Shown: positions 54,818 to 55,065 of the stretch, in pieces
Position numbering within the stretch: position 1 is the stretch's first letter
Layout of the letters: every line of letters begins with the position of its first letter
Position numbers and translations under genes: made by a program
Notes under the pieces: model-generated
The model's database searches: none
What the model was told of the DNA's origin: nothing
The model's input: the letters and a program-made list of their open reading frames with translations, nothing else
NCBI GenBank assembly: GCA_002718195.1
Contig: PBDU01000005.1
Coordinates: 3,638 to 67,637 of the forward strand
Source of the DNA: Methanobacteriota archaeon
GTDB lineage: Archaea; Thermoplasmatota; Poseidoniia; Poseidoniales; Poseidoniaceae
Direction: 5' to 3'
DNA length: 64,000 nt

Positions 54818-55065
54818 TGGAGTCGTAGGTGTTGCGCAGAAAGTGGGGTTGCGCAACACACTGTGGGGCCACCAAGTCAAGAGACTGGGGTGGAATCGAG
54901 GTCTCCCTGGCCACCATCCAGGGAGATTGTGGGGTTTTCGTGGTTGTGGGGACCACTTCGTCCACGTGCAAGGTGGGCACGCTTGCGTAAGGCCACAAAA
55001 CCGCTGATGCCGGACGTTGTCATCAACGGTGTAGAGGTGGCTCCATGTGTGTTGGGGTTCACATT
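54818..55065. ncRNA. Candidate structured non-coding RNA of unknown family (plus strand favoured by G-U pairs)
   Basis: 58% GC by hand count (134/230 over 54821-55050); 10-bp and 9-bp perfect hairpins; terminal helix 54818-25/55038-45; repeated TGGGG. Confidence 0.5.

What the first reader, a model, noticed from the sequence alone, without database searches (positions are those of the whole stretch)
54818..55065. GC-rich multi-hairpin element with recurring TGGGG loops: candidate novel archaeal ncRNA
Seen: 58% GC against a background near 40%. Hairpins are GTGTTGCGCA/TGCGCAACAC (54829-59, loop GAAAGTGGGGT), GAGACT/GGTCTC (54881-54905, loop with GGGG), TCTCCCTGG/CCAGGGAGA (54902-26, partly exclusive with the previous one), GTGGTT/GACCAC (loop GTGGG), CGTGC/GCACG (loop AAGGTGG), CGTTG/CAACG (55015-28) and ATGTG/CACAT (loop TGTTGGGGTT). 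A long-range helix GGTTTTcGTGGTT/GGCCACAAAACC is possible, and a terminal helix TGGAGTCG/TGGCTCCA works only on the plus strand through G-U pairs. TGGGG starts at 54844, 54864, 54886, 54930, 54947 and 55053, the first ones spaced 20, 22 and 44 bp apart. It lacks the SRP helix-8 and intact RNase P conserved motifs. Inference: (a) a CsrB-like sponge RNA presenting repeated G-rich loops to a protein, (b) a switchable cis-regulatory RNA, (c) a G-quadruplex/hairpin switch, or (d) phased DNA binding sites for the adjacent RHH protein. Together with the RHH gene, the small ORF and xpd, this is the best candidate for an undescribed system in the window.
Basis: partly seen in the sequence, partly recalled or inferred. 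Interest (0 to 1): 0.8.

Follow-up and report, generated by a model that had tools for sequence, protein, structure and literature searches.

The report
Folded RNA carrying a tiny gene
The GC-rich hairpin cluster is real, but it most likely works on the opposite strand: it is a conserved, transcribed, heavily folded RNA of marine Group II archaea that also carries a conserved 66-codon open reading frame, and it matches no catalogued RNA or protein family.

Summary
The sequence features are as described: 57% GC, hairpins, and six TGGGG. There is no Rfam hit. The published MGII metatranscriptome paper reports RNase P and SRP RNAs in MGII that Rfam recognises, so a divergent RNase P or SRP RNA is unlikely.

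The element sits at a conserved RHH–element–XPD junction in about 30 Poseidoniales loci. Seven or eight hairpins are kept through compensatory changes. Between relatives the element is far better conserved than the flanking genes (99.6% against 81–83%). Ten RNA-labelled runs give short contigs here, and in five of eight runs it is the only full contig in 20 kb.

Comparative data point to the minus strand, the strand of RHH and xpd. That strand has a near-perfect Shine-Dalgarno GGAGGGGAU followed by AUG. A 62–67-codon ORF follows, and its stop stays in one alignment column as UGA, UAA or UAG. All indels inside the ORF are multiples of three. The recurring motif therefore reads CCCCA.

Best reading: a structured small-protein mRNA, or dual-function RNA, with both the fold and the reading frame under selection. 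Function is unknown. It may be the published but uncatalogued MGII RNA "Tan1"; I could not test this.

The parts
54803..55199 (-). Union of the metatranscriptome contigs, i.e. the minimal transcribed region. The true 5' and 3' ends are not determined.
   Evidence: The ten contigs from RNA-labelled runs are: X25 54803-55069, X26 54863-55065, X27 54915-55158, X29 54934-55162, X28 54925-55199, X30 54931-55127, X33 54909-55104, X34 54841-55049, X31 54931-55108, and X37 55075-55113 (only 39 nt of a 2539-nt contig). Contigs have no direction.
55098..55106 (-). Conserved GGGUGAGAG block, 5 nt after the RHH stop codon.
   Evidence: GGTGAG is invariant in all 18 A-type sequences. It is also present in the distant clades L003, L006-L012 and L007.
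55075..55089 (-). GGAGGGGAUGGG-AUG: a Shine-Dalgarno-like GGAGGGGAU followed by the start codon of the small ORF (AUG = 55077-55075).
   Evidence: The block is invariant across 18 sequences and occurs once in the window. It is predicted to be base-paired with P of about 0.9-1.0 in all 18 sequences.
54877..55077 (-). Small ORF of 66 codons plus UGA: MNWQNVNPNTHGATSTPLMTTSGISGFVALRKRAHLARGRSGPHNHENPTISLDGGQGDLDSTPVS.
   Evidence: The ORF is 62-67 codons in all A-type loci, and the stop sits in the same column as TGA, TAA or TAG. Gap runs inside the ORF are 3, 3, 3, 12 and 15 nt, against mostly non-multiples of three outside it. dN/dS is 0.66 and the mean BLOSUM score of changed codons is +0.40, against about 0.9 and negative values in four of the five other frames; frame -1 is similar at 0.61 and +0.05. 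There are 95 homologous protein clusters and no Pfam or NCBIfam match. AlphaFold gives mean pLDDT 57 and a single helix at residues 24-38.
55038..55071 (-). Hairpin Pa: invariant UGGC/GCCA closing pairs and a covarying inner stem (AUGUG/CACAU in the window). The loop holds a CCCCA in the window clade.
   Evidence: (pairs 47:64 CG:10/UA:8; 48:63 GC:12/CG:3/UG:3).
55001..55029 (-). Hairpin Hb: CCGUUGAUG/CAUCAGCGG. The stem of 8-13 bp has a different sequence in every lineage.
   Evidence: per-lineage folds; helix 3: 5 of 8 pairs change on both sides. The amino acids encoded here are not conserved.
54964..54982 (-). Hairpin He: (A/G)CGUGC-CCNNCNU-GCACG(U/C). It encodes the 'RARxAR' motif.
   Evidence: (helix 4: 96% paired; the base pair shows GC:8, AU:4, GU:3).
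54940..54956 (-). Hairpin Hd: GUGGU-CCCCACA-ACCAC, with a C-rich loop. Some lineages lack it entirely, through 12- or 15-nt in-frame deletions.
   Evidence: (helix 5: 3 of 5 pairs change on both sides).
54902..54926 (-). Hairpin Hf: UCUCCCUGG/CCAGGGAGA.
   Evidence: helix 6: UA to CG changes at three pairs. These compensatory changes alter amino acids, for example Ser to Pro, Leu to Pro and Gln to Arg.
54869..54893 (-). Helix Hh: CCACC/GGUGG, enclosing a mini-hairpin with the ORF stop codon (54879-54877) in its loop. The 5' arm belongs to the near-invariant GAUUCCACCCC box, which is also the most frequent predicted partner of the Shine-Dalgarno/AUG region.
   Evidence: (helix 7).
54829..54859 (-). 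Hairpin Hg, downstream of the ORF: GUGUUGCGCA-ACCCCACUUUC-UGCGCAACAC. The loop motif CCCCAC(A) is conserved and the stem covaries (GUGCCCAG/CUGGGCAC and similar in other lineages).
54785..54808 (-). Variable tail hairpin Hi (UAGCAU...AUGCUA). A hairpin can be folded in this tail in most lineages, with a different sequence in each. It may be a 3'-end or terminator hairpin.
   Evidence: Hi window. This is weak evidence and was not tested statistically.
54776..54781 (-). Conserved AAUCCUUUAG box. It is TATA-like and lies 29-30 nt upstream of an ATG of xpd, so xpd probably has its own promoter and a leaderless mRNA. This marks the 3' limit of the element.
   Evidence: The box is invariant in A2 columns 324-333. 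The spacing was counted. The promoter role is inferred.
55110..55502 (-). Upstream RHH (CopG family) gene. Its stop lies 5 nt from the GGGUGAGAG block.
   Evidence: Pfam RHH_1 E = 4.7e-5, with weak hits to the aCcr1 and CdrS families. 482 homologues were found, many named CopG/RHH of Poseidoniales.
52658..54751 (-). Downstream xpd helicase gene.
   Evidence: ORF. Neighbours at homologous loci carry DEAD_2 and Helicase_C_2.

Best explanation
The functional molecule is an RNA of roughly 270-330 nt, most likely transcribed from the minus strand, the same direction as the RHH gene and xpd. It lies between those two genes throughout the Poseidoniales (Marine Group II archaea). It folds into a chain of seven to nine hairpins. 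It also carries a translation start (GGAGGGGAU, then 3 nt, then AUG) and a 62-67-codon ORF, and the ORF's stop codon sits in a hairpin loop. The last one or two hairpins lie beyond the ORF.

Shown here:
- The hairpins are kept through compensatory substitutions.
- Between close and moderately related lineages the nucleotide sequence is much better conserved than the neighbouring genes.
- The reading frame, the start and the stop position are also conserved.
- The region is transcribed.

Inferred:
- It is a structured small-protein mRNA, or a dual-function RNA.
- The hairpins make the transcript stable and abundant.
- Translation of the largely disordered micro-protein is gated by pairing of the Shine-Dalgarno/AUG region with the invariant GAUUCCACCCC box. 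That box can alternatively pair with GGUGG in helix Hh. The micro-protein has one basic helix (LRxRARxAR) and an acidic tail (DDGxGDSDSTPVS).
- The exposed CCCCAC motifs in loops and linkers are candidate contact sites for a protein or a G-rich RNA.

The biological role is unknown.
For: Synteny. GDH, a 147-aa hypothetical gene, RHH, the element and XPD lie in that order in the loci. The RHH-element-XPD core is also seen in the loci.

RNA-level selection.
- 87.9% of cells pair in 54 proposed pairs, against 34-41% when partners are slid.
- 19 pairs change on both sides, against 4-8 in the slid controls.
- The covariation score is 0.221, against 0.05-0.09, and 0 of 500 shuffles reach it.
- Each lineage has its own stem sequence in Hb, Hf, Hg and Pa.
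- Compensatory changes alter amino acids.
- Element identity exceeds that of the flanks: L018/L021 99.6% against RHH 80.6% and XPD 82.5%; WIN/L013 95.7% against 82.8% and 78.0%.
- GC1/GC2/GC3 are flat at 0.55/0.55/0.57, while xpd has GC3 0.345.
- Third codon positions are invariant in GCC ACC and CGT GCC CGT.

Frame-level selection.
- In a nucleotide-only alignment, gap runs inside the ORF are 3, 3, 3, 12 and 15 nt. Outside the ORF only 2 of 21 are multiples of three. My hypergeometric estimate is p of about 3e-4.
- The stop stays in one column as TGA, TAA or TAG.
- dN/dS is 0.66 against about 0.9 in four of the five other frames, and BLOSUM is +0.40 against negative values there.
- The peptide motif LGLFxLRxRAR recurs in the distant clades with different codons, including AGA against CGU/CGC for Arg.

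Strand.
- The Shine-Dalgarno, AUG and ORF lie on the minus strand.
- cGAAAg and cUUCGg tetraloops read correctly only on this strand in the distant clades.
- GU/UG cells outnumber AC/CA cells 50 to 30.
- The plus-strand terminal helix is broken in L001.

Transcription.
- Ten RNA-labelled runs give short contigs on 54803-55199.
- In 5 of 8 runs it is the only full contig in 20 kb.
- 15 RNA runs hold 27-92% of its sampled words, against 1 run (17%) for a 256-nt xpd control and 3 runs (10-29%) for a 256-nt RHH control.

Shine-Dalgarno pairing. The region is predicted to be paired with P of about 0.9-1.0 in all 18 sequences, and in 9 of them with the CCACCCC box.
Against: - The strand was not shown directly. 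Contigs have no direction. Thermodynamic folding does not discriminate: the antisense strand folds as well or better.
- The AT-rich box near 54776-54785 could also drive plus-strand transcription starting near 54803.
- The coding signal is weak in classical terms. Codon-position entropies are 0.74/0.70/0.82, and dN/dS is only 0.66. Frame -1 scores similarly (0.61).
- The region is poor in stop codons in several frames.
- The codon alignment used was guided by the protein, which favours frame 0.
- The Shine-Dalgarno to CCACCCC pairing involves invariant bases, so covariation cannot test it. The predicted partner also differs between sequences.
- The abundance argument is confounded. The element's higher conservation lets relatives' reads share its 31-mers. 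In runs X25 and X28 other genes of the window are covered at similar depth.
- No translation product has been observed.
Confidence: 0.6

Rival explanations
1. A pure non-coding RNA on the minus strand. The ORF, the Shine-Dalgarno-like box and the AUG are by-products of conserved RNA motifs in a stop-poor GC-rich sequence, and nothing is translated.
For: - Nucleotide-level conservation and covariation dominate.
- GC is flat across codon positions.
- The peptide is poorly conserved where hairpins covary.
- AlphaFold gives mean pLDDT 57 with no fold.
- Other frames are often open as well.
Against: - All five indel runs inside the ORF are multiples of three, against 2 of 21 outside it.
- The stop codon is kept in one column while switching between TGA, TAA and TAG, including between the close relatives L028 and L032.
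- Changes in the peptide are conservative (BLOSUM +0.40 against negative values in four other frames).
- The LRxRAR motif is kept with different codons in distant clades.
Confidence: 0.15
2. An ordinary small protein-coding gene, with the hairpins being incidental mRNA structure.
For: - Gene callers annotate it as a hypothetical protein in 95 clusters.
- The Shine-Dalgarno, AUG, stop and frame are conserved.
Against: - The element is 99.6% identical where the flanking genes are 81-83% identical, so there is no synonymous drift.
- Compensatory changes cost amino-acid changes such as Leu to Pro and Gln to Arg.
- Conserved covarying hairpins continue for about 75 nt beyond the stop.
- GC3 is 0.57 in a genome whose genes have GC3 of about 0.34.
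Confidence: 0.1
3. One reading: a plus-strand non-coding RNA that presents G-rich (TGGGG) loops, antisense to the ORF frame, acting as a sponge or as a G-quadruplex/hairpin switch.
For: - Plus-strand folds are as stable as or more stable than minus-strand folds.
- Contigs carry no strand information.
- Contig X25 ends at 54803, about 25 nt from an AT-rich box that could act as a divergent promoter.
Against: - The plus-strand-only terminal helix is broken in L001, whose xpd product is 96% identical.
- The frame, start and stop conservation has no explanation on the plus strand.
- The tetraloops of the distant clades read UUUC and CGAA on that strand.
- The consensus fold is slightly better on the minus strand: -105.2 against -101.7, and -28.7 against -24.8.
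- The G-runs are 17-106 nt apart, which is far for a canonical quadruplex.
Confidence: 0.07
4. A DNA-level element: phased binding sites for the adjacent RHH protein, or a G4/i-motif in the xpd upstream region.
For: - It lies next to an RHH regulator gene.
- The pentamer is repeated.
- One 8-mer next to the xpd TATA-like box is inverted in the window clade (GACCCCTC against GAGGGGTC).
Against: - Base-pair covariation in seven or eight helices is a signature of RNA, not of protein-binding DNA.
- The region is transcribed.
- The spacing and number of C/G-rich motifs vary between lineages.
Confidence: 0.03
5. A divergent RNase P RNA or SRP RNA.
For: The size, the GC richness and the abundance resemble housekeeping RNAs.
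Against: - There is no RF00373 or RF01857 match even at E up to 10, here or in L003.
- MGII archaea have RNase P RNAs (292-306 nt) and SRP RNAs (305-315 nt) that Rfam recognises (PMC5069720).
Confidence: 0.01

Closest known systems
Tan1 (Thalassoarchaea ncRNA 1; Hou et al. 2016, Sci Rep 6:35470, PMC5069720)
   Same: An abundant MGII-specific RNA of unknown function, 229 nt long, with a 'complex secondary structure', no Rfam family, and homologues at 75-79% identity. The size, host and abundance all fit this element, and identity between related clades here falls in the same range.
   Different: Identity could not be tested. The Tan1 sequence, coordinates and gene context are not in the text held, because Table S5 is truncated and the figures are not held. 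Tan1 was described as non-coding, whereas this element carries a frame-conserved ORF. Other agents of this scan named Tan1 as the nearest known thing for a different RNA of about 560-700 nt in MGII.
Bacterial dual-function sRNAs (RNAIII/hld, SgrS/SgrT, SR1/SR1P); from my own knowledge
   Same: An abundant, hairpin-rich RNA in which both the fold and a short ORF are conserved.
   Different: Those RNAs are bacterial and are shown to act by base-pairing with targets. No target or trans function is shown here, there is no sequence relation, and the ORF here covers about two thirds of the RNA.
CsrB/RsmZ-type protein sponges and RsaE/RoxS C-rich-motif sRNAs; from my own knowledge
   Same: A short motif is repeated in loops and linkers of a multi-hairpin RNA. 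As in RsaE, the motif is C-rich and complementary to G-rich Shine-Dalgarno-like sequences.
   Different: The motif is CCCCA(C), not GGA. The only Rfam hint was a noise-level PrrB_RsmZ hit in L003 (12.7 bits against a gathering score of 44). No CsrA-like partner or target is known, and this RNA is longer and contains an ORF.
Archaeal RNase P RNA (RF00373) and SRP RNA (RF01857)
   Same: Length class, GC richness in an AT-rich genome, and abundance in metatranscriptomes.
   Different: There is no covariance-model match. MGII have canonical versions of both elsewhere.

Membership tests
Archaeal RNase P RNA (Rfam RF00373) | A match to the covariance model (P4 pseudoknot, CR-I to CR-V) | tested here: not met
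   No hit at gathering score over the whole window. No hit at E up to 10 over 54650-55250 or over the L003 homologue.
Archaeal SRP RNA (Rfam RF01857) | A match to the covariance model (helix 8 and helix 6 motifs, Alu domain) | tested here: not met
   No hit. The MGII SRP RNA is recognised by this model elsewhere (PMC5069720).
Any Rfam 15 family | A score at or above the gathering threshold | tested here: not met
   Only a tRNA at 39952-40034 passes in the window. Hits in the element are microRNA or snoRNA noise of 14-17 bits.
Tan1 (Hou et al. 2016) | Sequence identity or homology to the published 229-nt RNA | not testable with these tools
Tan1 (Hou et al. 2016) | An abundant, MGII-specific, structured RNA of about 230 nt | tested here: inconclusive
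   Contigs of 178-277 nt appear in RNA runs, the fold is conserved, and the host is Poseidoniales. This is compatible with Tan1 but not specific to it.
Structured functional RNA (generic) | Helices kept through compensatory substitutions, beyond controls | tested here: met
   87.9% of cells pair against 34-41% when slid. 19 pairs show double changes against 4-8. 0 of 500 shuffles reach the observed covariation score. One caveat: the structure was derived from the same alignment.
Protein-coding small ORF | Reading frame, start and stop conserved across lineages | tested here: met
   The ORF is 62-67 codons in all A-type loci. The stop sits in one column as TGA, TAA or TAG. In-ORF gap runs are 3, 3, 3, 12 and 15 nt.
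Protein-coding small ORF | An excess of synonymous over non-synonymous change, with third-position variability | tested here: inconclusive
   dN/dS is 0.66, against about 0.9 in four other frames and 0.61 in frame -1. Codon-position entropies are 0.74/0.70/0.82.
Protein-coding small ORF | Membership of a known protein family, or a confident fold | tested here: not met
   No Pfam or NCBIfam hit. AlphaFold gives mean pLDDT 57 with one helix.
CsrB/RsmZ-type sponge RNA | Many GGA motifs in hairpin loops, and a CsrA/RsmA partner | tested here: not met
   The motif is CCCCA(C). The only hit is PrrB_RsmZ at 12.7 bits in L003, against a gathering score of 44. A partner protein was not tested.

The most novel reading that the evidence does not exclude
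This would be a lineage-wide dual-function riboregulator of the Poseidoniales. An abundant RNA would display C-rich CCCCAC loops that titrate a G-rich RNA or an RNA-binding protein. The same molecule would encode a disordered basic-acidic micro-protein, with translation gated by a Shine-Dalgarno/CCACCCC switch. That would make it an archaeal counterpart of bacterial dual-function sRNAs, in one of the most abundant archaeal groups in the surface ocean.
Probability: 0.25. Interest if true: 0.75.

Novelty: new member of a known kind. Interest (0 to 1): 0.55.

Why it matters
Marine Group II archaea are among the most abundant archaea in the surface ocean and none has been cultured, so almost nothing is known about how they regulate their genes.

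This element is core to the lineage: it sits at the same locus in MGIIa-like and MGIIb-like contigs. It evolves more slowly than its neighbouring genes, it shows up repeatedly in ocean metatranscriptomes, and it is absent from both Rfam and Pfam. Public annotations call it a 'hypothetical protein', which hides the RNA-level selection.

There are three uses for it:
- It offers a concrete, testable case of an RNA in archaea with constraints on both fold and reading frame.
- It is a candidate covariance model for annotating MGII genome bins.
- It is a marker transcript for MGII activity.

If it turns out to be Tan1, the new content is the conserved ORF, the strand, the gene context and the comparative structure.

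Tried and rejected
- Rfam, at gathering thresholds and at E up to 10, on the window and on L003: noise only.
I therefore could not run a genome-wide check for paralogues or for the canonical RNase P and SRP genes.
- The xpd-based scan of genome contigs gave only 3 loci. L002 has xpd but no RHH gene and no element.
- Strand assignment from thermodynamics failed. Single-sequence and per-hairpin minimum free energies are equal or better on the antisense strand, because the G-rich strand gains G-U pairs. I rejected this as a criterion.
- The 'frame 0 has no stops' argument was rejected as circular, and weak besides, since other frames are often open. I replaced it with indel lengths and the stop-column test.
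- Long-range pairing of the 5' G-rich block with the 3' 8-mer next to the xpd TATA-like box holds only in the window clade (GACCCCUC). Other clades have GGAGGGUC there.
- The GAUGGG/CCCAUC pairing in clade B is not conserved in L003.
- Looking for an internal promoter in the RHH 3' end found only the invariant GAATACCA. The bacterial-type promoter and terminator scan found nothing and does not apply to archaea.
- No similar DNA in phage records, and no viral contig with the 26-nt 5' block.
- No covariance model was built. A model of about 290 positions would exceed the calibration limit, and no genome collection was open to search.
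Full report
**1. Observation**

The stretch 54800-55099 has 57% GC, against 36-44% in the xpd side of the profile. It lies between xpd (52658-54751, minus strand) and an RHH/CopG gene (55110-55502, minus strand).

Elsewhere in the window the plus strand has 34 such hits in about 63.8 kb. About 0.1 would therefore be expected in this 214-nt span, by my arithmetic.

All the listed hairpins can be read in the sequence. Both strands fold better than shuffled sequence, with z = -2.5 for the plus strand and -3.5 for the minus strand.

**2. Not a catalogued RNA**

cmscan finds only a tRNA in the whole window at gathering thresholds. In the element, and in a distant homologue, it finds only noise up to E = 10.

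A published MGII metatranscriptome study reports RNase P RNAs (292-306 nt) and SRP RNAs (305-315 nt) of MGII that do match RF00373 and RF01857. It also reports one abundant unknown RNA of 229 nt, named Tan1 (PMC5069720). A divergent RNase P or SRP RNA is therefore very unlikely.

Tan1 is a serious candidate for being this element.

**3. Homologues**

I collected loci using xpd, the RHH protein in metagenome contigs, and RHH homologues traced to their contigs. This gave about 30 loci from Poseidoniales.

The loci share the order GDH, a 147-aa hypothetical gene, RHH, the element, then XPD. The loci show the RHH-element-XPD core.

There are two sequence types:
- **A type:** the window and the RHH homologues at 58-98% identity.
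- **Distant types:** L003/L010, L006-L012 and L007, with RHH at about 40% identity.

Both types share a 5' block (GGUGAGA ... GAUGGGAUG) placed right after the RHH stop. Both also share a chain of GC-rich hairpins separated by C-rich single-stranded motifs.

**4. The RNA fold is under selection**

I aligned 18 A-type sequences by nucleotide only (alignment A2). A set of eight local helices with 54 pairs behaves as follows:
- 87.9% of cells pair, against 34-41% when the 3' partners are slid by 1-3 columns.
- 19 pairs change on both sides, against 4-8 in the slid controls.
- The covariation score is 0.221, against 0.05-0.09.
- None of 500 shuffles reaches the observed values.

Folding each hairpin window lineage by lineage shows the same hairpin made from different sequences. 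For example:
- Hb: CCGUUGAUG/CAUCAGCGG, GCAGGAC/GUCCUGC, GUACAGG/CCUGUAC, and GUGUA..GGC/GCC..UACAC.
- Hg: GUGUUGCGCA/UGCGCAACAC, GUGCCCAG/CUGGGCAC, and GUGCUCAGG/CCUGGGCAC.

Between close and moderately related lineages the element is far better conserved than its neighbours:

| Pair | Element | RHH | XPD |
|---|---|---|---|
| L018 vs L021 | 99.6% | 80.6% | 82.5% |
| L018 vs L029 | 87.9% | 73.1% | 74.4% |
| WIN vs L013 | 95.7% | 82.8% | 78.0% |

At the deepest splits the advantage fades. WIN against L018 gives 62.2% for the element and 61.2% for RHH.

The terminal 'plus-only' helix is already broken in L001, whose xpd product is 96% identical.

**5. There is also a reading frame**

On the strand of RHH and xpd, every A-type sequence has an invariant GGAGGGGAU, then 3 nt, then AUG. 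An ORF of 62-67 codons follows.

In the nucleotide-only alignment the stop lies in one column, as TGA, TAA (L015/L016) or TAG (L028). The close relatives L028 and L032 differ there as TAG and TGA.

Gap runs inside the ORF are 3, 3, 3, 12 and 15 nt. Outside the ORF they are 1-7 nt, and only 2 of 21 are multiples of three. My hypergeometric estimate gives p of about 3e-4.

In frame 0, dN/dS is 0.66 and changed codons score +0.40 on BLOSUM62. In four of the five other frames dN/dS is about 0.9 and the scores are negative. Frame -1 is similar to frame 0, at 0.61 and +0.05. The codon alignment was guided by the protein, which favours frame 0.

The distant types keep an ORF from the same GAUGGG-AUG. 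They also keep the peptide motif LGLFxLRxRAR with different codons, for example AGA against CGU or CGC for Arg.

Gene callers annotate the ORF as 'hypothetical protein' in 95 clusters at 90% identity. These share MxWxN ... ATF ... GLAxLRxRA(R/K)xA ... DDGxGDSDSTP(V/A)S. There is no Pfam or NCBIfam match. AlphaFold predicts a single helix at residues 24-38, with mean pLDDT 57.

**6. It is not just a gene**

- Codon-position entropies are nearly flat, at 0.74/0.70/0.82.
- Third positions are invariant in GCC ACC and CGT GCC CGT.
- GC1/GC2/GC3 are 0.55/0.55/0.57, while xpd and the giant ORF have GC3 of about 0.34.
- Compensatory helix changes cost Ser to Pro, Leu to Pro and Gln to Arg.
- Hairpin Hg, with its conserved CCCCAC(A) loop, lies beyond the stop, together with a less certain tail hairpin Hi.

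Both layers of constraint are therefore real. The fold dominates, and the frame, start and stop are kept as well.

**7. Strand**

There is no direct evidence, because Logan contigs carry no direction. Thermodynamics does not help either, since the antisense strand folds as well or better.

The minus strand is favoured for these reasons:
- It carries the Shine-Dalgarno, AUG, ORF and stop.
- GU/UG cells outnumber AC/CA cells 50 to 30 at paired columns.
- The consensus fold is slightly better there.
- In the distant types, tetraloops read cGAAAg and cUUCGg on this strand but UUUC and CGAA on the other.
- The plus-strand terminal helix fails in a close relative.

I put the minus strand at about 85%.

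**8. Transcription**

Ten RNA-labelled runs give contigs that lie on 54803-55199. Nine are 178-277 nt long. The tenth is a 39-nt stretch of a 2539-nt contig.

Over 20 kb, the element's contig is the only full-length contig in X26, X29, X30, X33 and X34. X27 has one more. X25 and X28 have several at similar depth, so those two runs show presence and not enrichment.

Equal-length controls are held by far fewer RNA runs. The xpd control is held by 1 run (17% of sampled words) and the RHH control by 3 runs (10-29%). The element is held by 15 runs (27-92%). One caveat applies: the element's higher conservation lets relatives contribute 31-mers.

Contig ends do not define the RNA ends. Some contigs reach about 90 nt into the RHH 3' end. 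The RNA may therefore be co-transcribed with RHH and processed, or it may start inside RHH. No convincing internal promoter was found.

xpd seems to have its own TATA-like box, AAUCCUUUAG, 29-30 nt upstream of an ATG. That would make its mRNA leaderless and would bound the element on the 3' side. This is an inference.

**9. Mechanism (inferred)**

The Shine-Dalgarno/AUG region is predicted to be paired with P of about 0.9-1.0 in all 18 sequences. In 9 of them the partner is the near-invariant GAUUCCACCCC box, which is itself the 5' arm of helix Hh (CCACC/GGUGG). This suggests a translational switch.

The pairing involves invariant bases, so covariation cannot test it.

They sit in the loops of Pa (window clade), Hd and Hg and in linkers. 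The distant types have four or five ACCCCC linkers. They are plausible contact sites for a protein or a G-rich RNA. Nothing tested here shows this.

**10. Verdict**

- Best reading: a structured small-protein mRNA, or dual-function RNA, conserved across Poseidoniales.
- Novelty: an uncatalogued family of a known general kind, possibly identical to the published Tan1.

Noticed in passing
L025 and L026, about 1948-2272 (homologous to window 54790-55110): These two contigs are 99.7-100% identical in RHH, in the tail and in 900 nt of xpd. Yet they differ at 12 of 257 positions inside the element, including compensatory pairs (GUACAGG/CCUGUAC against GUACAAG/CUUGUAC). This could be an allele swap by recombination, or an assembly mosaic.
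   Followed up: partly
window 54768-54775, and A2 columns 334-341: The 8-mer just after the conserved CCUUUAG box reads GACCCCUC in the window clade. In other clades it reads GAGGGGUC or GGAGGGUC, and GAGGGGUC is the exact reverse complement of GACCCCUC. Only in the window clade can it pair with the 5' GGAGGGG.
   Followed up: partly
window 55075-55113, in run X37: A 2539-nt metatranscriptome contig with depth 43 matches only the 39-nt 5' block (GGGUGAGAG...GGAGGGGAUGGGAUG) and runs on into unlike sequence on both sides. This is probably a divergent relative in which only this block stays above 90% identical.
   Followed up: no
window 55110-55502 (-): The RHH protein gives weak sub-threshold hits to the archaeal cell-cycle regulator families aCcr1 (E = 0.004) and CdrS (E = 0.016). 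Its real start is probably Met8, since most homologues are 124 aa and GAGGGAG lies upstream.
   Followed up: no
window 54749-54781 (-), and the homologous loci: xpd appears to be leaderless. An ATG lies 29-30 nt downstream of the first T of the conserved TTTAG box in every lineage examined.
   Followed up: partly
window 54803-55141 (+) and 54806-55129 (-), and L031 1874-2206: Long spurious ORFs of 107-112 aa are open on both strands of the GC-rich stretch. In L031 a gene caller chose the antisense one, so public annotations of this locus are inconsistent.
   Followed up: yes
window 39952-40034 (+): The only Rfam hit in the window is an 83-nt tRNA with a long variable arm, which looks Leu-like.
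   Followed up: no
window 55113-55124 (-), the RHH C-terminus: GAAUACCA (Glu-Tyr-His/Gln) is invariant at the nucleotide level in 13 lineages, third positions included. The rest of the RHH 3' end drifts freely. The functional RNA, or its promoter, may therefore begin inside the RHH coding end.
   Followed up: partly
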